The notes under the pieces are model-generated. The model worked only from the letters and a program-made list of their open reading frames with translations. It was not told where the DNA came from and did not search any database. Position numbers and translations under genes: made by a program. Below are positions 13,053 through 54,743 of a stretch of 64,000 nucleotides of DNA, one piece after another; position 1 is the first letter of the stretch, and the number at the start of each line of letters is the position of its first letter. This DNA is from Candidatus Uhrbacteria bacterium (lineage in GTDB: Bacteria > Patescibacteriota > Patescibacteriia > UBA9934 > GWF2-40-263), in assembly GCA_014239775.1 (NCBI GenBank), contig JAAZYG010000039.1, forward strand, positions 6,134-70,133, read 5' to 3'.

Positions 13053-13085
13053 TAAAAAAACACCGTTTTATACGGTGATTTTATT
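13051..13085. terminator. bidirectional terminator between recR(+) and rplU(-)
   Basis: A7-CACCGT-tttat-ACGGTG-attttatt; hairpin overlaps rplU stop codon. Confidence 0.5.
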
Positions 13086-13473: not shown

Positions 13474-13923
13474 TTACTGTTTTTTGCCCACAATGTCAAG
13501 CATATCTCCTACTTTTAAATTATTCTTCTTAATAAATCCAGCATTAACCTCTAAAACACTATTTACTGGATATTGAGGTGAATATGAGTTGTCAGGATAG
13601 CTCTCAGGTACTAATTCTGATGAAAGATCAACTATTTTATTATCACTTATCCAAATTATATCTATTGACATAAGCATATCCTTCATCCAAAAGTTAGGAA
13701 TTAACTTCGTGTTAAAAATAAACAACATGCCCTCATTTACACCAAGAGTTGTCCTGCCTGATAAACCTTTTTTCTGCTCATCTATGCTTTCTGCAACTTG
13801 AATAATTACGACCTTTCCATTTGGTAATATTACTTTTGATCCATCATGTTTATTATGCAACAAAAAAACTACCGCCAATATTATGATGATTGCTGCAATT
13901 ATTGTGTACTTAACAGTTTTCAT
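13474..13923 (-). CDS. DUF192-family protein with N-terminal signal anchor
   Basis: GLSGRT...GMLFIF...MKDMLMSIDIIWI...VLEVNAG matches the DUF192 (COG1430) pattern. Confidence 0.6.
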   Translation of the reverse strand: MKTVKYTIIAAIIIILAVVFLLHNKHDGSKVILPNGKVVIIQVAESIDEQKKGLSGRTTLGVNEGMLFIFNTKLIPNFWMKDMLMSIDIIWISDNKIVDLSSELVPESYPDNSYSPQYPVNSVLEVNAGFIKKNNLKVGDMLDIVGKKQ

Positions 13924-14956
13924 GTTTTCTTTCTTTTGCTACTAAACTTGATGCTGCTAGTAACATTATAAGGGAAAGCAGTATCAACGCCAGTGCTTTA
14001 TCTCTACTTTGTAAAAACAGCGCACTGGCACCAAACATAGTTGCTATCAAAACATATATCAAAACAATTTGTCTCTGTCCCCAACCAATATCAAAAAATC
14101 TGTGATGTAGATGTTTCCTGTCAGCTTTTATAATTTGTTTTATTCCACCCTTCTTAAATCTACGAATCATGATCCAAACAACATCTAATAAAGGTATTCC
14201 TAGTACAAGTAGAGCTGTTGCCAATTTACCACCTGAAATAACTGCCAATGTTCCCAATAAAAATCCAACCAATGTACTGCCTCCTTCACCCAAAAATATA
14301 CTTGCTGGATGAAAATTCCAAAATAAAAAACCCAAAAATGCACCCAACACAATTACACCAAGTAATGCTACATCGCTTTGATAATAAGCCACAGTTAAAG
14401 AAAGTAGAGTGATCATTAGCACACCAACCGATGACACTGATGTCGCAAGGCCATCAAGTCCATCCAAGAATTTTGTTGTATACATAACAATCATCAACCA
14501 AATAAAAACTATTAAATCTGACTGCCACCATTCTAAAATTATTATTCCACCAAATGGATTAGATAGTTTGTCTATCTCAACTCCAAAAAGTATAACTATT
14601 ATCGTGGCTAAAAGTGGTGAGATTATTGAATGCATTGCCTTAATCTCAAACCTGTCATCTATATAACCACCGATCATCAACAAAAGACCACCTAACATAA
14701 TACCTATGTAGTGTCTGTGTGTAATCATCCCTTCTGTTAGAATCGATGTATTTGTAAGAGCTAATATTAACACTAAACTAAATGCTATATATATTGCCAA
14801 TCCCCCTAATCGTGCCGTTGTACACGTGTGTATGTTTCTTGATTTTGATGGCTTATCTACTGCACCACACTTAATTGCAAAACGTTTAACAAAAACCGTA
14901 CAAATAAAAGAAACCAAAAAAGCCATCATCCCCCATAGTATCAGTGTTTGAATCAT
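13910..14956 (-). CDS. polyprenyl-phosphate N-acetylhexosamine-1-phosphate transferase, MraY/WecA family (GT4)
   Basis: 10-11 TM protein with IDDRFEIKAMHSIISP and DGLDGLA motifs of the MraY/WecA superfamily. Confidence 0.65.
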   Translation of the reverse strand: MIQTLILWGMMAFLVSFICTVFVKRFAIKCGAVDKPSKSRNIHTCTTARLGGLAIYIAFSLVLILALTNTSILTEGMITHRHYIGIMLGGLLLMIGGYIDDRFEIKAMHSIISPLLATIIVILFGVEIDKLSNPFGGIIILEWWQSDLIVFIWLMIVMYTTKFLDGLDGLATSVSSVGVLMITLLSLTVAYYQSDVALLGVIVLGAFLGFLFWNFHPASIFLGEGGSTLVGFLLGTLAVISGGKLATALLVLGIPLLDVVWIMIRRFKKGGIKQIIKADRKHLHHRFFDIGWGQRQIVLIYVLIATMFGASALFLQSRDKALALILLSLIMLLAASSLVAKERKHENC

Positions 14957-17583
14957 ATTTCTGTTGCTCTTTCTATCCTTGTTCCGTTAATATCAATAAT
15001 TATTTTATCTCGTCTCTTTACATCTTCCTCAAGTAAAACCTTTGCCAATGAATTATCTACCTTTTCCTGTATTACACGTCTTAGTGGACGTGCACCAAAC
15101 TTTGGATCATAACCTTCCTTAGCAAGACTTTGAATCATTTCCTCAGAAATATCAAACTCAATCCCTTTATCTAATAATCTTTGTTTTACTTGCTCTATCA
15201 TAAGACCTGTAATCTTAACAACATCTTCTTGACTCAATGGTTTAAACACAATCACTCCGTCAAAACGATTAAGCATTTCTGGACTATATATTGTCTTTAA
15301 TTTTTCTTCTATTAAAGTTGTTCTTATTAATGAAATATCCTCATTCCTTTTAACAGCCTCCTGTATATACTCTGATCCTGCATTTGATGTTGCAACTAAT
15401 ATTGTGTTCGTAAAATCAATAATACGACCACTATTATCAGTCAACCTTCCGTCATCAAACACCTGCAAGAATAAGTTCATTATTTGAGGTGACGCTTTTT
15501 CAAACTCATCTAACAAAACAATTGTGAACGGATTTTGACGCACTGCCTCTGTTAACAAACCACCCTCTGTGGACCCCATCATTCCAATCAGTCTTTGTAT
15601 ACTTGAGACCTCCTGAAATTCTGACATATCCAATCTAACCATTGCATCGTCGTCACCAAAATAAACTGATGCTATTGTTTTTGTAAGCTCTGTCTTACCA
15701 ACACCTGTTGGGCCCATAAATAAAAACGTTGCGATTGGTCTGTTCTTAGATTGCAGATTGGTCCTTGCACGCCTCAAAGCAGATGCAACAGCGCTAACAG
15801 CTTCAGACTGCCCAATTACACGCTCATGCATCTTATCCTCTAGGTTTAGCAACTTATACTTCTCTTCCTCCTTAAGACTTGTTAGAGGAATATTTGTTTT
15901 TTCAGATATAATTTGTGCAACATCTTGATCTGTTATTAGCGAAGACTCGCCTTTTGTATTTTTTACAAACTGTGCAGCTTCTCTTGCTACATCAATTGCT
16001 TTTTTAGGTAAGTAGTCCTCATGCATATACCTATCAGTAAGACTCACGGCACTTTCAACTGCCTTGTATGAAAAAGTTACACCTTGTTCATACTCTATTC
16101 CACCAATTTTTGATTCCAAAATATGTATTGATAAATTAGTTTCTGGCTCTTGTATATCCACCTTTTGAAAAATGCGTGACAGCACTGACCTTTCTACTTG
16201 ATTAGCATAAGCTCTTGGATTGGTTGTAGCAATTGCAAATGTTCCACTTCTTGAAAGAAAATCTACAAAGCTTGTCGCTAAGTTTACTGTCCCGTCAGAC
16301 ATTCCAGCCATCTGTTCTATGTCTGTTACTGCAAGAATTATATTTCCAGATTTTGCAACCTCATTTAATGCACGTAAAAGCCTTTCTTGAGCCATTGAAG
16401 GATCCACACCTGATAAAAGGTGTGGTACAGATAATCGTACCAACCTCTTATCCTTTAAGACCTCCGGTACATTTTCTTCAACCATCAACTGAGCAATACC
16501 GTGTAAAATTGTTTTCTTTCCAACACCGTCTGAACCAACCAATACAGCACTTTGTCTTCCACCCTCAATTATCCTAAAGATCTGTTTCACCTCTTTCTCA
16601 CGCCCAACCATAAGAGGTAACCTACCATTTACACCCATTGTTGTAAGATCTTCTGAAAACGCATCTAACAAAGGAGTTGCAACTGATGTCATTGATCTGT
16701 TCATTGGACCCGTTGGTTTGAAGGCTGCAGCCTTTCTAAAATCTGTATACCTTTCACGCATTTTTTCGTGTATACGAACCCATTCAATCATATTTGCAAA
16801 TTGGTCCTTTGTTATTCCCTGATCAAAAAACAGCTCTTGAATAAATTCATCTGATTTAAATGCTTCATAAAAAAACTCAAGCGCATTTATCACACCTCGC
16901 TTTTGCTTATACGCGTTAATAAATGACCTAAGTAATATGCTTTTTGACTCTTCGGATAATTGTGTTTCAGGGCCTATTTGCCTACTAGACAATCTGCGTC
17001 CTATTGGGTCCTTAATTGCATCAATAGAAATACTAAGTCTTGATAAAACAGCACCTATATTACTATCATCAAAAGTTCCAATAAATATATGTATAGGTTC
17101 TATTTCTTGATGACCAAATTTTTTTGCTAATTCAAAAGCCGCATCTAATGCACCCGTTGAATTCTCATCAAAAAAATCAACTATATTTATAGCATCTTTA
17201 GTTGTTTGCAACTCTTCAATAGACGGATTAGAAAAATCCTCTGAATAACCAGGTATCCTCTTTTTTTTCTTTGCTTCTTTGTATTTATGTTGAAAAATAA
17301 ATGCACCAAATAATAGTGATATGGAAAAACACAACACACCAAACGATGGTGCTAACCAAAATTTTAAGGTAGCAACACCCACCAAATCTTCTTTTAAAAC
17401 AACAAATACAATTGATGTTATAAAAAACATTATTGATAATAAATAACCTGATCCAATCATTATTCTGGATGCTTGTTTTTTGTCATTTCTTTTTGCAATT
17501 GATTCCTCACTTATTTGAGGATTGATTACATATATTTTTGACTCTATCGAAACTGCTTTTTGCATATTAAAAAATAAAGCCAA
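14953..17583 (-). CDS. ClpC/ClpB-type double-ring AAA+ ATPase with two N-terminal transmembrane helices
   Basis: Residues about 45-100 are hydrophobic; a Clp_N-like repeat follows, then D1 Walker A GSDGVGKKT and D2 Walker A GPTGVGKTELTK plus sensor/arginine-finger regions typical of Clp/Hsp100. Confidence 0.8.
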   Translation of the reverse strand: MALFFNMQKAVSIESKIYVINPQISEESIAKRNDKKQASRIMIGSGYLLSIMFFITSIVFVVLKEDLVGVATLKFWLAPSFGVLCFSISLLFGAFIFQHKYKEAKKKKRIPGYSEDFSNPSIEELQTTKDAINIVDFFDENSTGALDAAFELAKKFGHQEIEPIHIFIGTFDDSNIGAVLSRLSISIDAIKDPIGRRLSSRQIGPETQLSEESKSILLRSFINAYKQKRGVINALEFFYEAFKSDEFIQELFFDQGITKDQFANMIEWVRIHEKMRERYTDFRKAAAFKPTGPMNRSMTSVATPLLDAFSEDLTTMGVNGRLPLMVGREKEVKQIFRIIEGGRQSAVLVGSDGVGKKTILHGIAQLMVEENVPEVLKDKRLVRLSVPHLLSGVDPSMAQERLLRALNEVAKSGNIILAVTDIEQMAGMSDGTVNLATSFVDFLSRSGTFAIATTNPRAYANQVERSVLSRIFQKVDIQEPETNLSIHILESKIGGIEYEQGVTFSYKAVESAVSLTDRYMHEDYLPKKAIDVAREAAQFVKNTKGESSLITDQDVAQIISEKTNIPLTSLKEEEKYKLLNLEDKMHERVIGQSEAVSAVASALRRARTNLQSKNRPIATFLFMGPTGVGKTELTKTIASVYFGDDDAMVRLDMSEFQEVSSIQRLIGMMGSTEGGLLTEAVRQNPFTIVLLDEFEKASPQIMNLFLQVFDDGRLTDNSGRIIDFTNTILVATSNAGSEYIQEAVKRNEDISLIRTTLIEEKLKTIYSPEMLNRFDGVIVFKPLSQEDVVKITGLMIEQVKQRLLDKGIEFDISEEMIQSLAKEGYDPKFGARPLRRVIQEKVDNSLAKVLLEEDVKRRDKIIIDINGTRIERATEI

Positions 17584-17944
17584 ACGTATTATTTAGCAAC
17601 AAGAAAGCTACTATTGGCAAGAATATTAAATAAATAAAAAAAGCTACTACTATTAGTAGTGACAATAATATAACCCCCATACTCTGAACAAGTATCATGA
17701 ACAATCTAACAAAAAAACTAATAATTTTTCCGCTTATTGTTGTCTCACCATACATTGGCACAAATAAGTTTTTAATCCATATTCGTAGACCAAAAAAATC
17801 TACCATGTTAGAAATTGAATTCTTTGTCATTGATAAAGCTAATACCAGTCCACTTGTATACCACCAAATAGGCATCATCAATAATTCCTTTCCTGATTGA
17901 ATTAATGCTGTGGATAATATATGTACAGAAATCTTCTTTGTCAT
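17567..17944 (-). CDS. hypothetical small membrane protein (125 aa)
   Basis: Hydrophobic ORF overlapping clp-like gene start by 17 nt. Confidence 0.4.
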   Translation of the reverse strand: MTKKISVHILSTALIQSGKELLMMPIWWYTSGLVLALSMTKNSISNMVDFFGLRIWIKNLFVPMYGETTISGKIISFFVRLFMILVQSMGVILLSLLIVVAFFIYLIFLPIVAFLLLNNTFGFIF

Positions 17945-17983: not shown

Positions 17984-20147
<2,164 letters not shown>

Positions 20148-22055
20148 TTATTCGTCTTTCTTTTCTTTGAAATCTGCATCTATTGGCTCGTCTTCAGACG
20201 TTTCTTTTGCATCTGCACCATCAGTATTTTTTTCATTCTCTTGATTCTCTTTCTTTTCTGCCTCGTACATCTTTGCACCAACTTTTTGCGCTGAATCAGA
20301 AAGCTCATCAGCAGCTTTTTTTATAGCTTCATGATCATCACCGTCCTTAACAGCTTTTAATGCCTCTATTTTATCTTCTACACCTTTTCTTTCTTCTTCA
20401 GTTATTTTATCACCTGCATCTTTTAGCATCTTTTCAGATGTGTATATCATTGTATCTGCCAAATTTTTATGCTCTGCTTGTTCTTTCTTTTGTTTATCCT
20501 CAGCCGCATGTTCCTCAGCATCTTTTTTCATTTTTTCCACCTCTTCCTCTGAAAGACCTGTTGAACCTTGAATTGTTATTTTTTGAGTTGTACCTGACGC
20601 CTTGTCTGTAGCAGAAACATTGAATAAACCATTTGCATCAATATCAAATTTAACTTCTATTTGTGGAATACCACGTTGTGCTGGAGGAATGCCTGATAAT
20701 ATAAATCGTCCTAATGTTTTATTTCCTTCTGAAATCTCACGTTCACCTTGAAGTACATGAATTTCAACAGTTGTTTGATTATCGGCAGCAGTTGAAAATA
20801 TTTGAGATTTGCTTGCTGGTATTGTTGTATTTTTTTCAATTAATTTTGTCATTACACCACCTAATGTTTCAATACCTAATGACAAAGGAGTGACATCTAA
20901 CAATAATACATCTTTTACATCTCCTTGAAACACACCAGCCTGAACTGCAGCACCCATTGCCACAACCTCATCTGGATTCATGCTTACATTTGGTTTCTTA
21001 CCAAAAAATTCTTCAACAGACTTTTGAACTAACGGCATTCGTGTCATTCCACCAACCATTATAATCTCCTCAATATCACCTTTTTCAAAACCAGCATCTT
21101 TTAATGCAGCCTTAAGTGGAATTAAAGTTTTTTGCACTAAGTCATAACACAGCTCCTCAAGTTTTGAACGTGTAAGAGAAAGCACTAAATGCTTAGGACC
21201 GTTTGCGTCCGATGTTATAAACGGTTGATTAATCTCTGTTTGCTGTGCAGTAGACAGCTCTACTTTTGCCTTTTCTGCAGCATCTTTTACTCTTTGTAAA
21301 GTAAGTGGGTCACCGGCAAGATTAATACCTTCTTGCTTTTTAAATTCATCTAAAATCCAATCAATAATCACCCTATCAAAATCATCTCCACCCAAATGAG
21401 TGTCTCCGTTTGTAGAACGAACTTCTACTGTATCTTCAGACACCTCAAGAACTGAAACATCAAATGTTCCACCACCTAAATCATACACCACGATCTGCTG
21501 ACCTGCTTTTTTATCAAAACCATATGCCAAAGCAGCAGCTGTAGGTTCATTAATTACACGACGCACTTTTAGACCTGCAATTTCTCCAGCTGTTTTTGTT
21601 GCTGCACGCTGCGCGTCATCAAAATATGCAGGTACAGTAATAACAGCTTCTTCAATAGTTTCACCTAGTCTTTCTTCTGCATCAGCCTTTAGTTTTTGTA
21701 GTATCATTGCAGATACTTCTTCTGGTGTATGTTCTTTACCAGCCATTTTTACAGCAACACCATTACCTTTTTGAACAATCTCGTACGGCATTATCTTCTT
21801 GTCATTTATAATTTCCTTATCATCCCAACGTCGTCCAATAAGACGCTTGATTGAAAATAATGTATCTGTTGGATTTGTCACAGCTTGACGTTTTGCAGGA
21901 AGACCAACAAGACGTTCTCCATTTTTATTTACAGCAACCACTGATGGTGTTGTACGTACTCCTTCTTTATTTTCTAAAACCTTTGGTTGACCACCCTCAA
22001 TTACTGACATACATGAATTGGTTGTACCTAGGTCGATTCCTAATATCTTTGACAT
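20148..22055 (-). CDS. dnaK: chaperone DnaK (Hsp70)
   Basis: [27 protein letters not shown] motifs; 635 aa. Confidence 0.95.
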
Positions 22056-22060
22056 AATTT

Positions 22061-22537
22061 TTATTTTTGTATTTTCTTATTATTTATTATGACCTTTGCT
22101 GGTCTTATTATTTTTTCATTTATTTTCCACCCAATTTGTTTTACCTCAAGTATCTTTCCATCATCAGAAGACTCATCAACTGACTCACCAACAGCCTCAT
22201 GAAGATTCTCATCAAATTCTTGATCTTGTAATCCAAATGATTCTACACCCATGTCTGATAACATATTTTCCAATTGTGTCTTAATGTGCTCGACACCCTG
22301 TAACCACATCTCTATATTTTTATCTACTTTCTCTGGCTTATACTTTATTGCTTGATCGAAGTTATCTATAATTGGAATAAGTTCATGGACTGTACCCTCT
22401 TTAATATTTACTCTCATCACCTCCTTCTCTCTAAGCAAATCTTTTTTTAAATTATCATAATCTGCAAGAGCCCTCTTCCATCCGTTCAAGCTTTCAATGC
22501 ATTTTTCACATTCTGTTTTTTTATTTTCTTCAGTCAT
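22061..22537 (-). CDS. grpE: nucleotide exchange factor GrpE
   Basis: 158 aa; position in hrcA-grpE-dnaK-dnaJ operon; coiled-coil N-terminus and C-terminal beta domain. Confidence 0.8.
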
Positions 22538-23234
22538 ACATTTTATTAATAATATCTTTTGCTGAATCTACAAGTGCGAGATTTTTTACATAATCCATTC
22601 GTAGTGGACCAACAATTCCAAGTAATCCTTTTTGGTTGTTCTTATATTTACACTGCACAACTATTGTTGCCATTTGTTCTCCGAACGGATTTGATGAACC
22701 TATGTATACTGTAGGAGTGTCTGTTGCGAGTTCGAACAACTGTTCGGTCATATCATCAAATCTACCAACAACATCTGACAATTCTCTTACAAGTTCTAAA
22801 TTATAAAAATCTGGCTTATGAAATAAATTTGAAACGCCAGCATAATAACTCCAATATGGATTGAAGGCAACAACGGCCGTCTCACCAGACATCTCTACCA
22901 TTTTTTTTGCAAGAGTCTTTAAAGTTAATCTAAAATCATCTGATTGTTTTATATGACTTTTTATTGAAGCATTTCTTGTAGGACTTTTATCTTTTTCTGT
23001 AATATTTTTTAAATAATACAGATACCCTTTTTCTGTTGGTATACGCCCAGCAGATGTGTGAGGCTGCCTAATATATCCACCTCTTTCAAGTATAGACATT
23101 TCATTTCTTACTGTTGCAGCAGAAACACTTAAATTAAATTTTTCAACTAAATACTTAGAACCCACAGTTTCTGCAGTTTTTATATAATCCTCTACAATGA
23201 GGCGTAGTATTAATTCTGTTCTTTGTTGCAACAT
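22530..23234 (-). CDS. hrcA: heat-inducible transcription repressor HrcA (short form; ATG at 23234 with GGAG RBS preferred over listed GTG at 23243)
   Basis: N-terminal winged HTH LQQRTELILRLIVEDYIKTAETVGSKYL...SAATVRNEMS is the HrcA signature; CIRCE lies immediately upstream. Confidence 0.8.
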   Translation of the reverse strand: MLQQRTELILRLIVEDYIKTAETVGSKYLVEKFNLSVSAATVRNEMSILERGGYIRQPHTSAGRIPTEKGYLYYLKNITEKDKSPTRNASIKSHIKQSDDFRLTLKTLAKKMVEMSGETAVVAFNPYWSYYAGVSNLFHKPDFYNLELVRELSDVVGRFDDMTEQLFELATDTPTVYIGSSNPFGEQMATIVVQCKYKNNQKGLLGIVGPLRMDYVKNLALVDSAKDIINKMYD

Positions 23235-23236
23235 AA

Positions 23237-23263
23237 TTAGCACTCCATATTATAGAGTGCTAA
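23237..23263. promoter_or_regulatory. CIRCE operator (HrcA binding site)
   Basis: Perfect inverted repeat TTAGCACTC-N9-GAGTGCTAA directly upstream of hrcA; spacer carries the -10 hexamer. Confidence 0.85.
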
Positions 23264-23276
23264 TTTGTATTGTCAA
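23249..23276 (-). promoter_or_regulatory. sigma70-like promoter of heat-shock operon (TTGACA-16-TATAAT) overlapping CIRCE
   Basis: Minus strand reads TTGACAatacaaattagcactcTATAATatggagtgctaattATG. Confidence 0.5.
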
Positions 23277-23295: not shown

Positions 23296-25059
23296 TTAAT
23301 TTGAACTGTTTAATGCTGCTGTTCTGGCATTATTCTCTTGATTTTTTATAAGTAATGCTTTCTTTTTCTCTGTATTTTTATATACTTTTAAGGCCTCCTT
23401 CTGTCTTGATTCTGCATTTTTTTTATCTTGTATTCTCTGTTTATAAATCTTGTTAACCACGTCAACCGGTAATGATTCAGAATAACCATCAGAACCATCC
23501 CAACTAATTAAGGTAACCACTCCGTCCTCAATGGTTGCGACTGTCATTTTGATCTCCTTTCCGCTTCTTGTTTTTATTGGCAATATATCATCTAATTTTA
23601 CAAGAGTATCTGACTGAATTTCTTCTAGTTTTATTCTATCTACTTGCTGATGTATTGACCCCTCGTTTTGATTGGGTACATCTAAGGATACGAAATACTT
23701 TTCATTTTGTGGAATATAATGACTAATCTTCCAATCTAAAGATGAGCCTTCAACTTTTACACTATCACCTTCTTTGTGCCTTAGTGGGAGTTCTGATGAA
23801 ATAATTTCACTTGTGACACGTGAAATCCAATAATCGTGATTTGATAGTTTACCTTCTAACTGATTGAGTTTTATTTGTTCTTCTACAGACTCAGCTCCTG
23901 CAAGTTTCATATCAATGATCATGCTCTCAATTTGTTTATATGACTTTTCCCACTGCTGAATATCAGATTCTGAGTATTGTGTAGTCTCTGGCACGTTATC
24001 ATTTTCATGTGATCTCATCATGTTTGGACCACGTTCTTTTACATTGTATACAATTGCAGCAATATCATCGCCCTTTGATCTTTGATTATTATCCTTGCCT
24101 CCCATAGAAATGTTTAACGCAGCCTCCTGTAAAGCTTTTTCAGCTGTACGGTCTGATCCATTTTGAAACATTATTTTTTTTATATCATCTTCAAGCATTT
24201 GATCATGAATTCCATCAGACGTTAATATCAATCTATCTCCTGGCATTACATCAAATTTCTGGATATTTGCATCAGAAGCACCTTCTTGTGCACCAACAGA
24301 TTTGGTTATAATGTTCCTGTAATTGTAATACATCCTTAAATCATCTGGAACTTCATCTATTCCCACAGCCTGGTCAACAAGTTTTGCATCTTCTTTTGAA
24401 ATATTGCCTTTACGTAATGCTTCGGTTACAAAACTATCATCTGCTGTGATTTGTAAGATTTCTTTACCTCTCATGACATAAATTCTACTGTCACCTACAT
24501 TTGTAATATAAAAACGCTGAGCACCGTTTGGCAACTCTACCAATTTACCTACAGAAGCAGTGGTTGCTGAATCATCACGAATCAATCCAGATTCCTTCAA
24601 TCTATCTGCAGAGGTTTTAATTTTTCTATCAGCTTCTGTCAAAGCTTTTTTTAATTGTGCCTCAGCAAGCTTGTCTATATATAAAATTTTTTGTTCATGA
24701 GACAATTTATCATTATCACCTATTGCCTTAATTTGATCATCAAGTTTTTGACCAACCTCTTCTTGAACAGATATACCTAACTCTCGTGACGCAAGCCAAC
24801 CTGCATTTGAAGATACTCCGTCAGCAACTAAAAATAAACCTCTATCGGGATCATTTACTTTTACATCTTCACATCTATCCTTTCTTTCTCTTGATCCAGA
24901 CTTTCTTAAACCTAACTCAGGTTGCTCACCAACATTTGTAGTTTTTTCTCTAAATTCTTGATCAATTTTATTAAACTCATCATCTAAAGATTTTGGTTTT
25001 TCAATTTGTCTTTCTCGTGACTGTTCCATATTAACTTTATTATAACAAAAACCGTCCAA
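23296..25059 (-). CDS. PP2C-family Ser/Thr phosphatase with about 240-aa C-terminal domain of unknown function
   Basis: PP2C motifs LFLVADGVSS, ITNVGDSRIYV, LILTSDGIHD, KGDDIAAIV in residues about 60-345; C-terminal region has no recognisable motif. Confidence 0.7.
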   Translation of the reverse strand: MDGFCYNKVNMEQSRERQIEKPKSLDDEFNKIDQEFREKTTNVGEQPELGLRKSGSRERKDRCEDVKVNDPDRGLFLVADGVSSNAGWLASRELGISVQEEVGQKLDDQIKAIGDNDKLSHEQKILYIDKLAEAQLKKALTEADRKIKTSADRLKESGLIRDDSATTASVGKLVELPNGAQRFYITNVGDSRIYVMRGKEILQITADDSFVTEALRKGNISKEDAKLVDQAVGIDEVPDDLRMYYNYRNIITKSVGAQEGASDANIQKFDVMPGDRLILTSDGIHDQMLEDDIKKIMFQNGSDRTAEKALQEAALNISMGGKDNNQRSKGDDIAAIVYNVKERGPNMMRSHENDNVPETTQYSESDIQQWEKSYKQIESMIIDMKLAGAESVEEQIKLNQLEGKLSNHDYWISRVTSEIISSELPLRHKEGDSVKVEGSSLDWKISHYIPQNEKYFVSLDVPNQNEGSIHQQVDRIKLEEIQSDTLVKLDDILPIKTRSGKEIKMTVATIEDGVVTLISWDGSDGYSESLPVDVVNKIYKQRIQDKKNAESRQKEALKVYKNTEKKKALLIKNQENNARTAALNSSN

Positions 25060-29086: not shown

Positions 29087-29161
29087 GGCCCCATCGTCTA
29101 ACGGCTAGGACGCCAGGTTCTCATCCTGGAAATCGGGGTTCGATTCCCCGTGGGGTCACCA
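29087..29161 (+). tRNA. tRNA-Glu (anticodon CUC), CCA encoded
   Basis: Cloverleaf: acceptor GGCCCCA/TGGGGTC, D-arm GTCTAACGGCTAGGAC, anticodon stem CCAGG/CCTGG with loop TTCTCAT, T-arm GGGGTTCGATTCCCC, discriminator A + CCA. Confidence 0.85.
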
Positions 29162-29552: not shown

Positions 29553-30157
29553 TCCTCTTTCTCCTGTGGCCGTGACCAGCCTGCTATAGGTTGTAAATAA
29601 GAACCTCGTTCAACAAAATACGTGTTATTTATATTGTTTATATTTAGTCTATCAGACCAAATATACCTTTTAAACACCAAATACCTTGTTGATACAATGT
29701 TCTGTTGAACAATAGAAATATATCCCTGTAACAAATCAACTTTTGTAATCAAGGCAACATGACCAACAGACCCATCATTGTCACCTCCATCAAAAATCAA
29801 AATGTCATATTTTTGTGGTGACACAGAAGAACCGTTAGGGTAAGCAATTAACCCTTTGGTTTTTGCATTCCAAAAATATGAATCTGCATGTCCTGTTTTT
29901 GTCATATTTCTATGACCCATTTGGCCATATGCTCGGTTGATCAACTCAACACATTGAAATTCAAGTCCGTATTTTCCGCGATGATTTGCACCATTTGCAG
30001 AATAAATTGGCCATCCTTCAAATCGCCCAAGCTGTGTCCCATGTTTAGGCAATCGGATTAAGCTCCAACCAACTGACAACATATGACGTGTGTAGCCTAT
30101 ACACAGAATGATTGTGACCATCAAAATGAAAACGAATAAAAACTTATACCTTTTCAT
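29549..30157 (-). CDS. CHAP-domain peptidoglycan amidase/peptidase with N-terminal signal anchor
   Basis: NGANHRGKYGLEFQCVELINRAY (catalytic Cys), YDILIFDGG, GHVALITKV (catalytic His): the CHAP pattern. Confidence 0.7.
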   Translation of the reverse strand: MKRYKFLFVFILMVTIILCIGYTRHMLSVGWSLIRLPKHGTQLGRFEGWPIYSANGANHRGKYGLEFQCVELINRAYGQMGHRNMTKTGHADSYFWNAKTKGLIAYPNGSSVSPQKYDILIFDGGDNDGSVGHVALITKVDLLQGYISIVQQNIVSTRYLVFKRYIWSDRLNINNINNTYFVERGSYLQPIAGWSRPQEKEE

Positions 30158-31142
30158 TTGCCTCTTCCTTCAAAAAAACTGGATACATGTCATAACCATT
30201 TCTGAAATAATACAGAAATGTTTTTTCAATTAATGCATCCGTTTTTTTAAAAATAGGGAAAATGCTTTTGGGTAAAAACCTTGGTTTACTAGGAAATACC
30301 AAGAACATTTTCATCATATCGTAGGACATGATATTTTGTTTAAAATCTAGGTGTCTTTCAGTTAAAGGTAAACGTAATTCAACAGCTTCAAGATAGTCGT
30401 AATTAGGAGGAGCAGAACGAGATTTTTTGTGAACCTCAGTAATCCATACTGGATTTAAATCCCCTTCTTCGAACAGCTCTTCAAACGTTTCATACCGCAA
30501 AGGATCTGACCCGTCATTGTTGTGCATAAAATGCAAAGCCTTGCCTCTAATAATTAAGACAACGTGAGAATTAATATCTGGCCCTTCAGCCTGAATCTTT
30601 TCCCAATAACTTGTCTTTTCCCAAAGCAAGCCTACAACATATATTTTGTCACGACTAAAAGAATAGTGCACAACAGTGTTAACGAGTGTTTCTTTTACCT
30701 CTTGGCTTATAACACCGTCTTCATTATATCTATCAGATGCATCCCACAAAGTTGAAAGTTTGCGATTGTTTGATACACAACTTTCACATAATTTGTGAGA
30801 CCTCAATTCCCATGCACTAGCATGAACCAAATTTACACCAGTAAACAAACTGATGTACTTGGTTACCGCAGCTGAACACAAATCATTATCATATTCCCAC
30901 CACGGCAAAATTCTGGGTATCCGTCCACTGCGCTCCATTTGATTAATCAAAGCGGAACGATCCTCAAGATCAAATTTATTTACCATTGACCAAAAGGTTA
31001 ATTCCTCAGAACGAGCAGCAGATCTTACCTTAGGATAATTGACATAACACCAAATAAGAACAATCATCATCACAAATGTGACAATCATGAAAGGAACGAT
31101 GGCACGAAGAGCAATGTATCTAGCTTTTGCCAGTAATCGCAT
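30144..31142 (-). CDS. hypothetical membrane-anchored protein (332 aa), first gene of the CHAP operon
   Basis: N-terminal TM; conserved-looking Cys (DNDLCSAAV) and His (SHVVLIIRG) could indicate a papain-like fold, but unproven. Confidence 0.4.
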   Translation of the reverse strand: MRLLAKARYIALRAIVPFMIVTFVMMIVLIWCYVNYPKVRSAARSEELTFWSMVNKFDLEDRSALINQMERSGRIPRILPWWEYDNDLCSAAVTKYISLFTGVNLVHASAWELRSHKLCESCVSNNRKLSTLWDASDRYNEDGVISQEVKETLVNTVVHYSFSRDKIYVVGLLWEKTSYWEKIQAEGPDINSHVVLIIRGKALHFMHNNDGSDPLRYETFEELFEEGDLNPVWITEVHKKSRSAPPNYDYLEAVELRLPLTERHLDFKQNIMSYDMMKMFLVFPSKPRFLPKSIFPIFKKTDALIEKTFLYYFRNGYDMYPVFLKEEANEKV

Positions 31143-34368: not shown

Positions 34369-35406
34369 TTACATTTTAGCAATTGTTTTTTTAACTTTAT
34401 CAATCTGTGTTTTATCAAAATTTGCTGTAGCTAATTTTGCCATTTCATCTATCATTTTTAACCCCTCATCATAATGATTTTTTACAGGTCCATCATGGTT
34501 TACATTTCCACGAATTGTATTATGTAGATCATTAAAATATGGCTGACCTGTTTGTGCCTCAACCATTACACCATGTGTTGGACTTAAAATAACATACCCT
34601 TTTTCAGAAGCTGCTATATACGTTTCCTTTAATTTTCCATAAATTTCATCAAGCTGTGATTGCTCTTGAATATCATATGGCATCATGCCTTCAAACCATG
34701 TATCCAATAAATCATAACCTTCTACATATTGCTCTAAACTAGAGCCTTTTTGACCATCATAAACCGTACCGTAATTTTCTGGAATCCCAGGTATTCCCTC
34801 GAGGTCTTTGAGTGCTTGTTCATTACTGTATAAATAATCAACAAGAACACTTTTCTTTTCACCAGAACTGTCAAAAACAGACAACCTTGGATCAGGCTGA
34901 GACCTATCTTCATGCTTGTTCCACTGAAACTCATTAGACGAATCAGTTATTACATATCTTTTATCAGCAAGATGGAATGCCTTTTCTACAACAAAACTTT
35001 CTTCACCACTTTGTTTATCTTTTACTTTTAGCTTGTATAAAAAACCATGCATGCCTCTAGATAATATTTCTCTATCACCAACTAAATCATAACCTTTTTG
35101 ATCTAATGAATCTTTAACTGACTCAATACTTGCAACTCCATCTGGTATCTTCTCTCCTTCTACTGTAGTTCTTAATTCAACAACCTCAGAAGATTGTTCT
35201 ACATTAAAATCACCGACTTCATTGGTTGGTTTGTTTTCTTTTCTCAATGCACGCTCTTCCGCATTTGGAAAAGGAATGATTTTTCCAACTTCTTCTCCTG
35301 GCATAAAATAATTATTAAATATTATATTAAGGATAAAACTTGAGAATAAAAAAAGCAAGTACACAATATACTTGCTAAGCGTAGCCTTTTGCGAACAACT
35401 GATCAA
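34369..35406 (-). CDS. hypothetical secreted/membrane-anchored protein (345 aa)
   Basis: N-terminal hydrophobic segment; faint kinase-like spacing (GMHGFLYKLKV...VVEKAF...H.T.RGNVNHDG) not reliable. Confidence 0.4.
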   Translation of the reverse strand: MISCSQKATLSKYIVYLLFLFSSFILNIIFNNYFMPGEEVGKIIPFPNAEERALRKENKPTNEVGDFNVEQSSEVVELRTTVEGEKIPDGVASIESVKDSLDQKGYDLVGDREILSRGMHGFLYKLKVKDKQSGEESFVVEKAFHLADKRYVITDSSNEFQWNKHEDRSQPDPRLSVFDSSGEKKSVLVDYLYSNEQALKDLEGIPGIPENYGTVYDGQKGSSLEQYVEGYDLLDTWFEGMMPYDIQEQSQLDEIYGKLKETYIAASEKGYVILSPTHGVMVEAQTGQPYFNDLHNTIRGNVNHDGPVKNHYDEGLKMIDEMAKLATANFDKTQIDKVKKTIAKM

Positions 35407-52143: not shown

Positions 52144-53187
52144 CTATTCAGCAAATGCGCTCTTTGCCACATTCCACAAACGATCATCACCGTTCTCCTT
52201 TAGTAAATACCACCATTCTGCGCCCCAAAGATATGCTTCTGATAATCTTGCTTTTCTAGCAAAATCTAAATTATTCTCAAACTTCTCCACATCAAATGCA
52301 TCATACCACTCAAGTATTGGTCTGTTCTCAATAGGTTCAGGGAACCACGGCTCAGCTTGCAATTCAGAAACTATTACACGAGACACATAATCCTTAACTA
52401 ATTGAGCTCTTAAATAATAAAACTCTGGTGATATTGGGTACATAAAATGACCAAAAAAATCATTCCAGGTTTGCCTATACATTGAAAGACCAAGTATATC
52501 GGCTTGTTTTGCCGCATCTTTCCACGGTCCCAATTCACCGCTAACAGTAACTTGTATTGGCTTGTTATCAAGTTCTCGTACAATCGACACTCTTTCATTG
52601 AACTGTTCCATTGTTACCTGTTCTTCACATTCACCAAAAGGAAAGAATGGTTCATTTTCTACTTGCCATCTGTCTACAGAAACTGAGTTACGATACCTCT
52701 TTACTGTTTCTCCTATAAAATTCATTGTATGTTTGTGCTGCTCTTCTGAGTTGAATTTTTTAACCCAATCTGGCACAAAACACTCTGGCCATCTTGGTAC
52801 TTTTGCACCAACTACCATTGTTAAATTAACATCATTTTTATTAGATTGGTCCACCAACCAATCATATGTCGACCAATCGTAAATTCCTTCTTCTGTTTCT
52901 ACCTCAGACCAATAAACTGGAAGTCGCACATATTTTACATTCAAATCATCGAGTAGAGTTTTGTAAACTTTTTTATCATCTAATCCCAATCCTTTACTGT
53001 AAACTGTTGAGAAAGTAATACCGTATTTTGTTTTTACATCTTCAGGTATGTCACTTAGCCACATGTTTGCATATACAAACACAAAACTTGTTGCAATGAG
53101 TAGCAACACAAATGCCCATATGTGTGAATGTTTTTTATGAAGTGACATTAAATTTCCTCTCGTTTTTCTCTTAAAAATCCTAACCAA
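52144..53187 (-). CDS. secreted glycoside hydrolase-like TIM-barrel protein (clan GH-A-like)
   Basis: N-terminal TM/signal; RLPVYWSEVE...GIYDW and WQVENEP (acid/base-like NEP motif), later SELQAEPW. Confidence 0.45.
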   Translation of the reverse strand: MVRIFKRKTRGNLMSLHKKHSHIWAFVLLLIATSFVFVYANMWLSDIPEDVKTKYGITFSTVYSKGLGLDDKKVYKTLLDDLNVKYVRLPVYWSEVETEEGIYDWSTYDWLVDQSNKNDVNLTMVVGAKVPRWPECFVPDWVKKFNSEEQHKHTMNFIGETVKRYRNSVSVDRWQVENEPFFPFGECEEQVTMEQFNERVSIVRELDNKPIQVTVSGELGPWKDAAKQADILGLSMYRQTWNDFFGHFMYPISPEFYYLRAQLVKDYVSRVIVSELQAEPWFPEPIENRPILEWYDAFDVEKFENNLDFARKARLSEAYLWGAEWWYLLKENGDDRLWNVAKSAFAE

Positions 53188-54743
53188 CTTTCTATTATAT
53201 CAATCGCCGCCTTAAATGGTGCCTCGATTATAAAATCGAAGAAAAATAAAAATATATTTACTCTAGGTGCCCTCATTGCAACCCATCTACCAGCTCTTAC
53301 TATTGGTAAGAATAACACATCTGCTAAAACTCCGAGAAATCCAGTTGTTGGATCAAAGACCATTAATTCTCTTCTTGTGTTCCTGATTCTTAAACCAAAG
53401 TATGCAACTAATGACAAGAAGAATATAAAAAAGAATGTTGATAAAGCATTAAAACCAAAAGATCCTAGACTGTTTGATATAAATAATACAACACCTGCAA
53501 ACACACCTACATACAATAAATTAAAAACCATCCATAAGGGACCTTTTACCCAAGGACGTTTTCTCTTAAATATAAGTGAAAAATCATCTCTCAATCCCAA
53601 CAATGAATGAATCTCCTCTGTAATTTTTGATGTGTTCTGACTTTTAGGTATACGCACACTTAACCCTACAACAGCTAAAAGTAATGGTGGAAAAAATACA
53701 TTTATTGCTAAAGGTAAGTACTCAACTGTTTGTAATACAAAAACCTCATATGGATATTCTACCAGAAATACAAGAATACTTTTTGTTAACAATAAAAAAA
53801 CCATTGCACGAACTACGGTTCGCATTATTTTAGTTCTGAACAGTGAATATTTTTCGTTTGTTGCGGCACTAATAGCTGAATCAAGCACTGATGTATCTTT
53901 ACTGTTAACAGCCTGAGTAAATGCCTCCGGATTATCTTGTGCTATTTCAGACAAGATTCTAAACACAACAGCATGACGTCTCACAAACCTAAACACCGCA
54001 TCTTGAGACTTGTGTCCTATCTGTTCTTCTACTGAAGCTATAACTTTTTTTAGATTTAGAGCTATTTCGTTTACTACATCATCTTTTGAGTTTGCTGTTC
54101 TCCATTTTGGATAATATAAGGTCAACATTCTATATCTAAGGGTTGCTATATTAGATTTTAAAACTGCCCTATGTACTGCAATATACATCTGTAAATCCTG
54201 ATCAGCCTCATCCACCACCTTCGTACGCCACTCAGTACGTTTTTTTAATTCCTGATATGCATAACTGGCCAGTGCCTCATCTATACAAGGTGGTCCTAAT
54301 ACATACTCTATTTCTGTAGAAAGCACATCAAGCAGCCACTTGTAGTTATCATGACTCTCTTTTACATCTTCATGTAATCCTCCAAACATTCTTTTGTATT
54401 TTTGTAAAATATCAGCAACCTTATCCACCATTTCTGAAGGTACTTTGTTATTTTCTAAATAACGAGCCCATATCAATTCCTTTATTAACTTTGCTGATAA
54501 TTTCTTTGCATCAGTTTCTGCAAGACGTCTTTTTAGGATTCTTCTAATAGCATTGCGCCTTAAAAGATGCTCTTCATCATATTCGAGAGTATTTCTTATT
54601 GTCTCATAAACAGAAGCTGCTGCTGAAACCGTCTCTGAAACATTTATTACATCTTCATTTTTTTCCTCGCTCACCTTTTCGTTACGCATCGATACTATCG
54701 TACTCAAAAGATGCTGAAGAGCTTTATCCATAATATTAAACAA
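53148..54743 (-). CDS. hypothetical protein with soluble N-terminal half and about 5 C-terminal TM helices (531 aa)
   Basis: ORF overlapped 8 nt by upstream GT gene and 40 nt with downstream gene; no motif. Confidence 0.45.
   Translation of the reverse strand: MFNIMDKALQHLLSTIVSMRNEKVSEEKNEDVINVSETVSAAASVYETIRNTLEYDEEHLLRRNAIRRILKRRLAETDAKKLSAKLIKELIWARYLENNKVPSEMVDKVADILQKYKRMFGGLHEDVKESHDNYKWLLDVLSTEIEYVLGPPCIDEALASYAYQELKKRTEWRTKVVDEADQDLQMYIAVHRAVLKSNIATLRYRMLTLYYPKWRTANSKDDVVNEIALNLKKVIASVEEQIGHKSQDAVFRFVRRHAVVFRILSEIAQDNPEAFTQAVNSKDTSVLDSAISAATNEKYSLFRTKIMRTVVRAMVFLLLTKSILVFLVEYPYEVFVLQTVEYLPLAINVFFPPLLLAVVGLSVRIPKSQNTSKITEEIHSLLGLRDDFSLIFKRKRPWVKGPLWMVFNLLYVGVFAGVVLFISNSLGSFGFNALSTFFFIFFLSLVAYFGLRIRNTRRELMVFDPTTGFLGVLADVLFLPIVRAGRWVAMRAPRVNIFLFFFDFIIEAPFKAAIDIIESWLGFLREKREEI

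What the first reader, a model, noticed from the sequence alone, without database searches (positions are those of the whole stretch)
14953..17944. Membrane-anchored ClpC/ClpB-type Hsp100 ATPase co-transcribed with a small membrane protein
The 876-aa protein has complete D1 and D2 AAA+ modules and a Clp_N-like repeat, preceded by about 100 residues containing two predicted TM helices. Canonical ClpB/ClpC are soluble.

Its start overlaps a 125-aa polytopic membrane protein. The operon continues into an MraY/WecA-type transferase and a DUF192 protein.

A membrane-tethered unfoldase/disaggregase may act on envelope or secretion substrates, or it may be a lineage-specific replacement for FtsH-like quality control.
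Basis: partly seen in the sequence, partly recalled or inferred. Interest (0 to 1): 0.5.

Follow-up and report, generated by a model that had tools for sequence, protein, structure and literature searches.

The report
Membrane-anchored Hsp100 with small partner protein
This is a real, previously undescribed branch of the ClpB/ClpC (Hsp100) ATPase family from tiny uncultivated bacteria: it is anchored in the membrane, always paired with a small unknown membrane protein, and has lost the parts that let its relatives thread, disaggregate or degrade proteins, so it probably works differently.

Summary
A two-ring Hsp100 gene lies on the minus strand at 14953-17565. Its likely start is the ATG at 17565 (870 aa), not the TTG at 17583. 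It begins with a conserved beta-hairpin and a two-helix membrane hairpin, both ends cytoplasmic.

This N-terminus is conserved in about 290 homologues, all from Patescibacteria (Uhr-, Magasanik-, Falkow-, Buchananbacteria). The "true start is downstream" refutation therefore fails.

It is not a ClpB, ClpC or ClpA:
- It has no M-domain and no ClpP-binding loop.
- The D1 ring is catalytically degenerate in 287/287 members.
- The D2 pore-loop tyrosine is deleted in about 87% of members, while the D2 ATPase motifs are invariant.

A 125-aa protein (17567-17944) with no Pfam or PDB relative precedes it in 78/79 species loci, usually translationally coupled. A WecA-like glycosyltransferase follows in 66/70, and DUF192 follows that in 44/60. 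One MAG fuses the Clp to the transferase. Here the module lies downstream of a CIRCE-controlled hrcA-grpE-dnaK-dnaJ operon.

Best reading (about 0.4): a non-proteolytic, D2-driven, membrane-bound two-protein AAA+ machine acting on envelope-biogenesis membrane proteins. I found no paper describing it. New variant of a known kind; function untested.

The parts
17567..17944 (-). Small partner protein, 125 aa. Motifs: PIWWYTxG, W.KN(L/I)FVPMYG and GRxISFFVR. Helical N-terminal part followed by one long C-terminal hydrophobic helix.
   Evidence: ORF. No Pfam or NCBIfam hit. 63 homologues, all Patescibacteria. Invariant residues W27 W28 Y29 G32 F61 V62 P63 M64 G66 S76 R80. AF2 pLDDT 92.9. No PDB fold match. 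Hydropathy and charge profile. Found in 300 GTDB species genomes.
14953..17565 (-). Membrane-anchored Hsp100 paralogue, 870 aa from ATG 17565. The mechanical ORF from TTG 17583 would give 876 aa.
17458..17565 (-). N-terminal cytoplasmic segment (aa 1-36): a conserved beta-hairpin (consensus G..I....Y.W.E..D...I..R.AR) and a basic stretch before TM1.
   Evidence: Conservation. AF2 strands 3-7 and 10-13. Net charge +2.3.
17290..17457 (-). Transmembrane hairpin: TM1 aa 37-58, short acidic outer loop aa 59-72, TM2 aa 73-92.
   Evidence: Hydropathy in the window protein and its homologues. AF2 helices 20-58 and 75-100. Positive-inside analysis.
16720..17166 (-). Clp_N-type N-domain (aa 134-282), divergent from canonical N-domains.
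   Evidence: Pfam Clp_N E=1.8e-7 for one repeat. Eight AF2 helices. phmmer with aa 1-300 finds only 219 clusters among 1.84 billion representatives. In the full-length hits this region starts roughly 70-190 residues into the protein.
16663..16719 (-). Family-specific conserved linker KPTGPMNRSMTSVATPLLD (aa 283-301). It is a 19-aa insertion relative to canonical Hsp100.
   Evidence: Invariant K283, T293, T297, L300, D301. Seen as an insertion in the comparison with in-genome paralogues. Low pLDDT at 286-293. Unexplained.
15931..16662 (-). D1 AAA+ module (aa 302-545), catalytically degenerate. Walker A is GSDGVGKKT. The Walker B 'DE' is replaced by 'TD'. There is no pore-loop aromatic residue, and the M-domain is absent at its usual insertion point.
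14956..15930 (-). D2 AAA+ module plus D2-small domain (aa 546-870). Walker A GPTGVGKT, Walker B LLDEFEKA, Arg finger NRFD and sensor-2 GARPLRR are all intact. The pore loop is shortened to GMMGSTEGG (canonical GAPPGYVGYEEGG). There is no ClpP-binding loop.
13910..14956 (-). WecA-like polyprenyl-phosphate sugar-1-phosphate transferase (Glycos_transf_4, 348 aa). Its start overlaps the Clp stop by 4 nt (ATGA).
   Evidence: Pfam PF00953 E=1.9e-28. NCBIfam WecA 113 bits against MraY 54 bits, both below cut-off. Downstream of the Clp in 66/70 species loci. The 4-nt overlap occurs in 41/67 loci. One natural Clp-GT4 fusion.
13474..13923 (-). DUF192 protein (149 aa) with an N-terminal hydrophobic segment. 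Overlaps the end of the GT4 gene by 14 nt.
   Evidence: Pfam PF02643 E=9.4e-26. Follows GT4 in 44/60 species loci.
17984..23243 (-). Upstream genes on the same strand with very short spacers: hrcA (22530-23243), grpE (22061-22537), dnaK (20148-22055), dnaJ (19080-20147), tgt (17984-19075).
   Evidence: The same order is seen in L003 and L004.
23237..23276 (-). Perfect CIRCE operator (23237-23263) overlapping a perfect sigma-70 consensus promoter (23276-23249). This is a possible heat-shock promoter for the whole gene string.
13061..13077 (-). First terminator-like hairpin plus T-run that lies outside coding sequence downstream of the module, after the L21 gene.

Best explanation
The locus encodes a two-protein, membrane-embedded AAA+ machine specific to a subset of Patescibacteria.

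The large subunit is a class-I Hsp100. An N-in/C-in transmembrane hairpin places its N-domain/D1 face against the cytoplasmic side of the membrane. D1 is a conserved but non-hydrolysing ring, probably for assembly and nucleotide binding. D2 is the only motor.

The small subunit is made in step with it by translational coupling. It is a tail-anchored helical protein that I infer binds the Clp as an obligate cofactor or adaptor.

The family lacks the M-domain, the ClpP-docking loop and, in most members, both aromatic pore loops. I therefore infer that it is neither a DnaK-coupled disaggregase nor a protease partner, and that it does not rely on canonical tyrosine-paddle threading. Instead, D2 ATP hydrolysis would drive remodelling, assembly or regulation of membrane proteins. 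The best candidate client is the co-translated WecA-like glycosyltransferase that starts a surface-glycan pathway. In this organism, expression probably runs from the HrcA/CIRCE heat-shock promoter.

Shown: architecture, motif states, topology signal, conservation and gene linkage.
Inferred: physical complex, hexamer formation, client identity, non-threading mechanism and heat induction.
For: - Architecture and fold.
- TM hairpin conserved across the family, with positive-inside charges.
- Comparison with canonical paralogues in the same genomes shows a loss of the M-domain, the IGF loop, both pore-loop aromatics and the D1 Walker-B Glu that is specific to this family.
- In 287 members, D1 has no Walker-B Glu in any sequence. 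D2 Walker A/B, Arg finger and sensor 2 are essentially invariant. D2 pore-loop Tyr/Phe is present in only 36/287.
- D1 is still strongly conserved (mean column identity 0.72).
- The partner gene lies immediately upstream in 78/79 GTDB species loci and in all distant loci examined. These include loci without the GT4 (L088, L089).
- Stop/start spacing is within -8..+6 nt in 71/81 loci.
- GT4 lies downstream in 66/70 loci, with an ATGA overlap in 41/67.
- The module keeps the order partner, Clp, GT4 in otherwise different neighbourhoods (L005, L006).
- One fusion protein joins the Clp to a GT4 that has lost exactly its first TM helix, as cytoplasmic continuity requires.
- A perfect CIRCE and promoter lie upstream, with no intergenic terminator before 13077.
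Against: - No experiment exists, and no multimer model could be run, so the Clp-partner complex and any contact with GT4 are inferred from gene linkage only.
- The GT4 linkage is lineage-limited: it is absent next to the deep-branching members L088 and L089. It could reflect inherited synteny.
- The Clp-GT4 fusion occurs in one MAG only.
- About 13% of members keep a D2 pore-loop Tyr/Phe, so threading may be ancestral and perhaps still used.
- The window protein has Met-Met in the shortened loop, which might still grip substrate.
- Co-transcription from the CIRCE promoter is inferred from spacing, not shown.
Confidence: 0.4

Rival explanations
1. It is a membrane-protein dislocase or unfoldase for quality control, an analogue of FtsH or Msp1. 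It would pull damaged or mislocalised membrane proteins out of the bilayer through the D1-D2 channel and release them in the cytoplasm.
For: The geometry fits: a TM hairpin N-terminal to the N-domain and D1 puts the substrate-entry face against the membrane. In this window it sits in a heat-shock gene string behind CIRCE. Some deep-branching members keep GAPPG(Y/F)xG in D2. Some carry a DnaJ-like zinc finger at the N-terminus.
Against: Aromatic pore-loop residues are absent from D1 in all members and from D2 in about 87% of 287 members, including this protein. The loop is variable in length and sequence, which indicates relaxed constraint. D1 is not a motor. There is no protease domain or docking loop. 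The partner is conserved whether or not the pore-loop Tyr is present.
Confidence: 0.25
2. It is an export or translocation motor. The hexamer's 12 TM helices, plus 6 from the partner, would form a conduit aligned with the AAA+ channel. ATP hydrolysis would push a polymer or protein across the membrane, in the way HSP101 works on the EXP2 pore in PTEX.
For: The TM hairpin and the partner's TM helix are conserved. The module is linked to surface-glycan genes. A DUF192 protein with an N-terminal hydrophobic segment lies downstream.
Against: Pore loops are missing. TM sequences are poorly conserved (column identity 0.30-0.44). In Hsp100 rings substrate enters at the D1 face, which here faces the membrane, so the direction would be inward, not outward. 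No secretion components are adjacent.
Confidence: 0.08
3. It is an ordinary soluble ClpC/ClpB whose start codon was called too far upstream. The hydrophobic region would then not be translated.
For: The mechanical ORF starts at a TTG, and there is no clear Shine-Dalgarno sequence before the ATG.
Against: The N-terminal 130 residues are conserved as protein in about 290 homologues, with a recognisable motif, two hydrophobic helices and positive-inside flanks. There is no in-frame ATG between residue 52 and about residue 259 of the 876-aa translation (read from the translation). The start abuts the upstream stop in the pattern typical of translational coupling in 71/81 loci. The rest of the protein is also non-canonical.
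Confidence: 0.02
4. It is a decaying paralogue with no ATP-dependent function, a pseudo-enzyme on its way out.
For: Many canonical elements have been lost.
Against: The D2 catalytic motifs are invariant in 287 sequences. D1 and D2 show 0.72-0.79 mean column identity across sequences that are 45-59% identical overall. The gene is retained with its partner in 300 species genomes of organisms with very small genomes.
Confidence: 0.03

Closest known systems
ClpB / Hsp104 disaggregases
   Same: Two tandem AAA+ modules, a Clp_N-type N-domain and a D2-small domain. D2 has no ClpP loop and is the same length as Thermus ClpB in that region. The best NCBIfam hit is ClpB (538 bits).
   Different: The score is far below the ClpB cut-off (1232). 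There is no M-domain, so no known route to DnaK coupling. D1 is catalytically dead, the pore-loop tyrosines are missing, and the protein is membrane-anchored.
ClpC / ClpA (ClpP-coupled unfoldases)
   Same: Highest sequence and structure similarity overall (S. aureus ClpC, 430 bits; Foldseek TM-score about 0.83). Like ClpA, it has no M-domain between D1 and D2.
   Different: A 7-residue deletion removes the ClpP-binding (I/L/V)G(F/L) loop. There is no UVR or short M-domain, D1 is degenerate, and there are TM helices. The ClpA model scores 456 bits against a cut-off of 993.
FtsH
   Same: An AAA+ ring held at the cytoplasmic face of the membrane by two N-terminal TM helices. FtsH is a heat-shock-linked membrane quality-control factor (established knowledge).
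   Different: FtsH has one classic-clade AAA module with an aromatic pore loop and a fused M41 zinc protease. None of these is present here. Not homologous beyond the AAA+ fold.
Torsin ATPases with LAP1/LULL1
   Same: Related to Clp/Hsp100, membrane-associated through an N-terminal hydrophobic segment, lacking aromatic pore loops, and working with small transmembrane cofactors. The mechanism is thought to be non-threading (PMC5425593).
   Different: Torsins are single-ring, eukaryotic and luminal. They lack their own arginine finger, which the cofactor supplies. Here the D2 arginine finger is essentially invariant (285/287), the partner has no AAA-like fold, and there are two rings. The resemblance is an analogy, not membership.
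HSP101 of the Plasmodium PTEX translocon
   Same: A ClpB-type Hsp100 operating at a membrane together with membrane-protein partners (PMC6550532 abstract).
   Different: HSP101 is not itself membrane-anchored and docks on the EXP2 pore; that it keeps pore-loop tyrosines and an M-domain is from general knowledge of PTEX, not checked here.

Membership tests
Clp/Hsp100 class I (two-ring) superfamily | Two tandem AAA+ modules, with an AAA lid after D1 and a ClpB_D2-small domain after D2 | tested here: met
   Pfam AAA_lid_9, AAA_2 (1.6e-48) and ClpB_D2-small (1.8e-24). The AF2 model superposes on ClpC/ClpB protomers with TM-score about 0.83 and rmsd about 4 A.
Clp/Hsp100 class I (two-ring) superfamily | Clp_N-type N-terminal domain | tested here: met
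   Pfam Clp_N E=1.8e-7 for one repeat. AF2 gives eight helices at 134-282. The domain is divergent: phmmer with aa 1-300 finds only 219 clusters, and in the full-length hits this region starts roughly 70-190 residues into the protein, as in this family.
ClpB | Score above the curated equivalog cut-off (TIGR03346) | tested here: not met
   538 bits against a cut-off of 1232.
ClpB | Coiled-coil middle domain of about 120 aa inserted in the D1 small subdomain | tested here: not met
   The alignment jumps from Thermus ClpB residue 393 to 512. There is a gap of roughly 110-120 columns against in-genome canonical paralogues.
ClpB | Pore-loop tyrosines in D1 (KYRG) and D2 (GYVG) | tested here: not met
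   The D1 aromatic position is deleted or non-aromatic in 287/287 members. The D2 Tyr is deleted here, and Tyr/Phe is present in only 36/287.
ClpB | Both nucleotide-binding domains carry the Walker-B Asp-Glu pair | tested here: not met
   In D1 'DE' is 'TD' here, and no member has Glu at the catalytic position (D 162, N 90 of 287). D2 is intact.
ClpC / ClpA / ClpE (ClpP partners) | ClpP-docking (I/L/V)-G-(F/L) loop in D2 | tested here: not met
   There is a 7-residue deletion opposite S. aureus ClpC 'RFAGFGG'. The in-genome paralogue has 'QYSIGFSD' where this family has nothing.
ClpC / ClpA / ClpE (ClpP partners) | Score above the curated cut-off (ClpA TIGR02639) | tested here: not met
   456 bits against 993.
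ClpC / ClpA / ClpE (ClpP partners) | A clpP gene in the genome | not testable with these tools
   No clpP was seen among the roughly 40 window ORFs scanned against Pfam or NCBIfam; about 15 smaller ORFs of 100-260 aa were not scanned. The rest of the genome is not available.
ClpV (TssH) | Score above cut-off, and a type VI secretion gene context | tested here: not met
   408 bits against 885. No T6SS genes appear in any of the neighbourhoods examined.
FtsH | Single classic AAA module fused to an M41 metalloprotease | tested here: not met
   No Peptidase_M41 or FtsH hit. Only the two-TM N-terminal anchor is analogous.
Torsin | Single Clp-D2-like ring lacking its own arginine finger, which a cofactor supplies | tested here: not met
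   There are two rings, and the D2 Arg finger (NRFD) is present in 285/287 members. The shared traits, namely no aromatic pore loop, a membrane anchor and a TM cofactor, are analogies.
Anti-phage defence AAA+ systems (PADLOC) | Full-length match to a defence-system model | tested here: not met
   There are only partial matches of the D2 domain to DolB and PDC-M37B, and no hit for the partner or DUF192. The context is housekeeping genes.

The most novel reading that the evidence does not exclude
This would be a bacterial counterpart of the Torsin principle: a membrane-embedded Hsp100 that has given up substrate threading. It would have a pseudo-ATPase D1 ring, an active D2 ring and no pore-loop paddles. 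It would act as an ATP-driven switch together with an obligate tail-anchored cofactor of a new fold. Its role would be to control or assemble the enzyme that initiates a surface-glycan pathway (WecA-like GT4) in Patescibacteria. That would make it a new kind of envelope-biogenesis regulator and a new working mode for Hsp100 proteins.
Probability: 0.25. Interest if true: 0.8.

Novelty: new variant of a known kind. Interest (0 to 1): 0.6.

Why it matters
Hsp100 proteins are textbook soluble threading machines. Each known class is defined by what it couples to: ClpP through the IGF loop, DnaK through the M-domain, or T6SS sheaths through the N-domain.

This family keeps the two-ring scaffold and a fully conserved D2 motor. 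It has dropped every known coupling element and most pore loops. It has gained a membrane anchor and an obligate partner of unknown fold.

If the complex is real, it offers three things. It is a natural experiment on what an Hsp100 ring can do without threading. It gives a handle on envelope biogenesis in Patescibacteria, whose surfaces mediate their episymbiotic life. It also assigns a context to an orphan protein family of about 300 species and to DUF192.

For annotation, these genes are currently labelled 'ATP-dependent Clp protease ATP-binding subunit ClpC'. That label implies a proteolytic role, which the sequence does not support.

Tried and rejected
- Misannotated start: rejected on conservation of the N-terminus.
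- Membership in ClpB, ClpA, ClpG, ClpK or ClpV: every curated NCBIfam cut-off is missed by a factor of at least 2.
- Defence system: PADLOC gives only generic D2 matches.
- Known family for the 125-aa partner: nothing found. This covers Pfam on 28 members at E<=1, NCBIfam, PADLOC and Foldseek against the PDB (best E=3.6). The afdb50 library was unavailable.
- Recurrent Clp-GT4 fusions: a search with the fused protein P0205 found no second fusion among the 120 best hits. The fusion is therefore a singleton and weak evidence.
- Heat-shock linkage as a general property: rejected. The pair lies next to dnaK only in the Uhrbacteria-like loci. Elsewhere it follows mraZ-rsmH or a canonical Hsp100.
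- GT4 as the true MraY: not supported by profile scores. I could not check whether another MraY exists in the genome.
- Internal promoter in the 39-nt tgt/partner spacer: there is a perfect TATAAT, but no acceptable -35 or extended -10, so nothing is claimed.
- Source record of the window protein: the exact-sequence look-up found nothing on record and the cluster look-up gave no names.
- Literature: six full-text searches found no paper on a membrane-anchored Hsp100 or on this partner family. Reading the CPR protein-family paper also found nothing.

Full report
**What is in the sequence**

On the minus strand, an ORF runs from 17583 (TTG) to 14953 (876 aa). A 125-aa ORF occupies 17944-17567. 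The DNA reads ...TTT TTT TAA T ATG CAA..., so an ATG at 17565 follows the upstream TAA by one nucleotide. The 870-aa product from that ATG is found in the protein collection at 100% identity, with NCBI as its source. Its first residues align with the N-termini of homologues (MQKAVSIESKIYVI against MSKGVIIDNKAYVL and similar). I take 17565 as the start, so the two genes abut rather than overlap.

Pfam finds one Clp_N repeat, AAA_lid_9, AAA_2 and ClpB_D2-small. NCBIfam's best models are ClpB (538 bits, cut-off 1232), ClpA (456 / 993), ClpG, ClpK and ClpV, all far below their cut-offs. An AlphaFold2 model built on 62 family sequences has pLDDT 85.6 and pTM 0.70. Its D1-D2 body superposes on ClpC and ClpB hexamer protomers with TM-score about 0.83 and rmsd about 4 A. 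It is a genuine two-ring Hsp100.

**The membrane anchor is real**

Kyte-Doolittle scanning gives two hydrophobic helices, at aa 37-58 and 73-92. The same pair appears in nearly all 114 full-length homologues of 45-59% identity.

I ran an exhaustive phmmer search of aa 1-300 against 1.84 billion cluster representatives. It found only 219 clusters. Of the 83 full-length hits, 82 have at least one predicted TM helix in the first 230 residues. In those full-length hits the N-domain starts roughly 70-190 residues into the protein.

Family-wide net charge is +2.3 in the 15 residues before TM1, -1.0 in the loop and +2.6 after TM2. By the positive-inside rule this is an N-in/C-in hairpin with the ATPase in the cytoplasm. 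AF2 adds a beta-hairpin at residues 3-13 and long helices at 20-58 and 75-100.

Canonical Hsp100 paralogues encoded next to the module in some related genomes begin directly with the N-domain.

**It is not a ClpB, ClpC or ClpA**

I used residue-level alignments to S. aureus ClpC and Thermus ClpB. I also compared three genomes that carry both a canonical paralogue and the membrane type. The membrane type differs in five ways:

- **No M-domain.** About 120 residues are missing at the ClpB insertion point.
- **No ClpP loop.** There is a 7-residue deletion exactly where ClpC has its ClpP-binding loop. The in-genome paralogue has QYSIGFSD at that site.
- **Altered D1 Walker A.** It reads GSDGVGKKT.
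- **Altered D1 Walker B and pore loop.** Canonical Asp-Glu is Thr-Asp, and the D1 pore loop has no aromatic residue.
- **Shortened D2 pore loop.** It reads G-MMGSTEGG where canonical proteins have GAPPGYVGYEEGG.

In 287 family members aligned to a canonical paralogue:

| Element | State in the family |
|---|---|
| D1 Walker-B catalytic position | Asp 162, Asn 90, never Glu |
| D1 Walker-B Asp position | scattered over E/S/T/D/P/N |
| D1 Walker-A Thr/Ser | 130/287 |
| D1 pore-loop aromatic residue | absent in all |
| Second D1 arginine finger | 16/287 |
| D2 Walker A, Walker B, Arg finger, sensor 2 | invariant or nearly so |
| D2 pore-loop Tyr/Phe | 36/287; the loop is 6-8 residues in most members instead of 12 |

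D1 is nevertheless strongly conserved (mean column identity 0.72). It is maintained for something other than hydrolysis.

A 19-residue insertion between the N-domain and D1 (KPTGPMNRSMTSVATPLLD) is among the most conserved stretches. AF2 models it with low confidence. I have no explanation for it.

**The partner protein**

The 125-aa protein has no Pfam, NCBIfam or PADLOC match, and no PDB fold match. It has 63 homologues in the large protein collection. It has relatives in 300 of 185,579 GTDB species genomes. These are labelled Uhrbacteria, Magasanikbacteria, Falkowbacteria or Patescibacteria, plus some evidently mislabelled MAGs.

Invariant residues cluster in the N-terminal two-thirds: W27 W28 Y29 G32, F61 V62 P63 M64 G66, S76 and R80. 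AF2 (pLDDT 92.9) gives four short helices, a loop carrying NLFVPMYG, and one long helix at 70-124. Only residues of about 91-120 are uncharged and strongly hydrophobic. I read this as a cytoplasmic or interfacial domain with a single C-terminal membrane helix, not a polytopic protein.

**Gene linkage**

In 80 GTDB species loci fetched through the partner:

- The membrane-type Clp follows immediately in 78 of 79 assessable cases.
- GT4 lies downstream in 66 of 70, and directly adjacent in 56.
- DUF192 follows GT4 in 44 of 60.
- tgt lies upstream in 40 of 63.

Partner-stop to Clp-start spacing is +1 nt in 29 loci and -4 (ATGA) in 19. It falls within -8..+6 in 71 of 81. The Clp-stop/GT4-start overlap is ATGA in 41 of 67, as in this window.

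The order partner, Clp, GT4 persists where the surroundings differ. It follows mraZ-rsmH in L006. In L005 and L007 it lies next to a divergent canonical Hsp100.

Two deep-branching members that keep the D2 Tyr (L088, L089) still have a partner homologue directly upstream but no adjacent GT4. The invariant core is therefore the pair, and the GT4 link is broad but not universal.

One MAG encodes a 1231-aa fusion of the Clp to GT4. GT4's first TM helix is replaced by the Clp C-terminus. This is what topology requires if the Clp C-terminus and GT4's first loop are both cytoplasmic. The fusion is a singleton, so it counts only as supporting evidence.

The GT4 scores better against WecA than against MraY (113 vs 54 bits, both below cut-off).

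**Local expression context**

Upstream on the same strand, with spacers of only a few nucleotides (39 nt before the partner gene), lie tgt, dnaJ, dnaK, grpE and hrcA. A perfect CIRCE element (23237-23263) overlaps the -10 of a perfect consensus promoter (23276-23249).

The first terminator-like site outside coding sequence is at 13077-13061, after the L21 gene. Read-through from the HrcA-controlled promoter into the module is plausible but not shown. This context is lineage-specific.

**How it most likely works**

Shown:
- a membrane-anchored two-ring Hsp100 scaffold;
- an intact D2 ATPase and a degenerate but conserved D1;
- absence of the M-domain, the ClpP loop and (mostly) the aromatic pore loops;
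- an always-present, translationally coupled partner, and frequent coupling to a WecA-like transferase.

Inferred:
- the Clp forms a hexamer whose N-domain/D1 face lies against the membrane;
- the partner is a stoichiometric cofactor or adaptor;
- D2 hydrolysis drives remodelling, assembly or regulation of membrane proteins rather than canonical threading;
- the co-translated transferase is the best candidate client.

The nearest functional analogy is the Torsin/LAP1 system. Torsins are Clp-related, membrane-associated, lack aromatic pore loops and depend on TM cofactors (PMC5425593). This is an analogy only, because the arginine-finger logic and the ring number differ.

The main rival is a threading dislocase for membrane-protein quality control. 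The geometry, the heat-shock context and the pore-loop Tyr retained in a minority of members all favour it. The loss and variability of the pore loops in the majority argue against it.

**Novelty**

Six full-text literature searches and a reading of the CPR protein-family paper found no description of a membrane-anchored Hsp100 or of the partner family. Public annotations call these proteins 'ClpC' or 'AAA family ATPase'.

I rate it a new variant of a known kind. It belongs to a well-known superfamily, but it has a new architecture, a new partner and probably a different mode of action. Function remains untested, and the organisms are uncultivated.

Noticed in passing
window 23237-23276: A perfect CIRCE operator (TTAGCACTC-N9-GAGTGCTAA, no mismatches) overlaps the -10 of a perfect TTGACA-16-TATAAT promoter in front of hrcA-grpE-dnaK-dnaJ. 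This is a textbook HrcA arrangement in a Patescibacteria genome.
   Followed up: partly
L005 2652-5297 (-); also L007 3550-6186 (-), L080, L081, L086: The canonical Hsp100 paralogue encoded divergently next to the module in Falkowbacteria-like genomes combines a ClpB-length M-domain with an IGF-type loop (QYSIGFSD) in D2. This mixes ClpB and ClpC hallmarks.
   Followed up: partly
L090 4240-7935 (protein P0205): A single MAG encodes a 1231-aa in-frame fusion of the membrane-anchored Clp with the WecA-like GT4. The GT4's first TM helix is missing. No second fusion was found in the protein collection.
   Followed up: yes
L005 10079-11701: The GT4 downstream of the Clp is fused to a QueH domain (PF02677). 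In Uhrbacteria-like loci tgt sits just upstream of the module (40/63 loci). Queuosine-pathway genes therefore flank the module on both sides in different lineages.
   Followed up: no
proteins P0209 and P0226 (distant family members): Some distant members carry two DnaJ-like CxxCxGxG zinc-finger motifs ahead of the N-terminal hairpin and TM helices. This hints that the cytoplasmic N-terminus may be a client- or partner-binding element.
   Followed up: no
window 16663-16719 (aa 283-301 of the Clp): The linker KPTGPMNRSMTSVATPLLD is a 19-aa insertion relative to canonical Hsp100. It has several invariant residues but low AF2 confidence. Its role is unknown.
   Followed up: partly
window 30144-31142, 34369-35406, 52144-53187, 53148-54743 (all minus strand): Four sizeable ORFs (332, 345, 347 and 531 aa) have no Pfam match at E<=1e-5.
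   Followed up: no
window 23296-25059 (-): A 587-aa protein with a PP2C-type Ser/Thr phosphatase domain lies directly upstream of hrcA. A PP2C gene occupies the same position in L004.
   Followed up: no
window 1-64000: GC content is low (about 34%) and GC skew is negative in every 2-kb window across the whole stretch. Most genes are on the minus strand and only one tRNA (Glu-CTC, 29087-29161) is present. This is consistent with one replichore arm of a small Patescibacteria genome.
   Followed up: no
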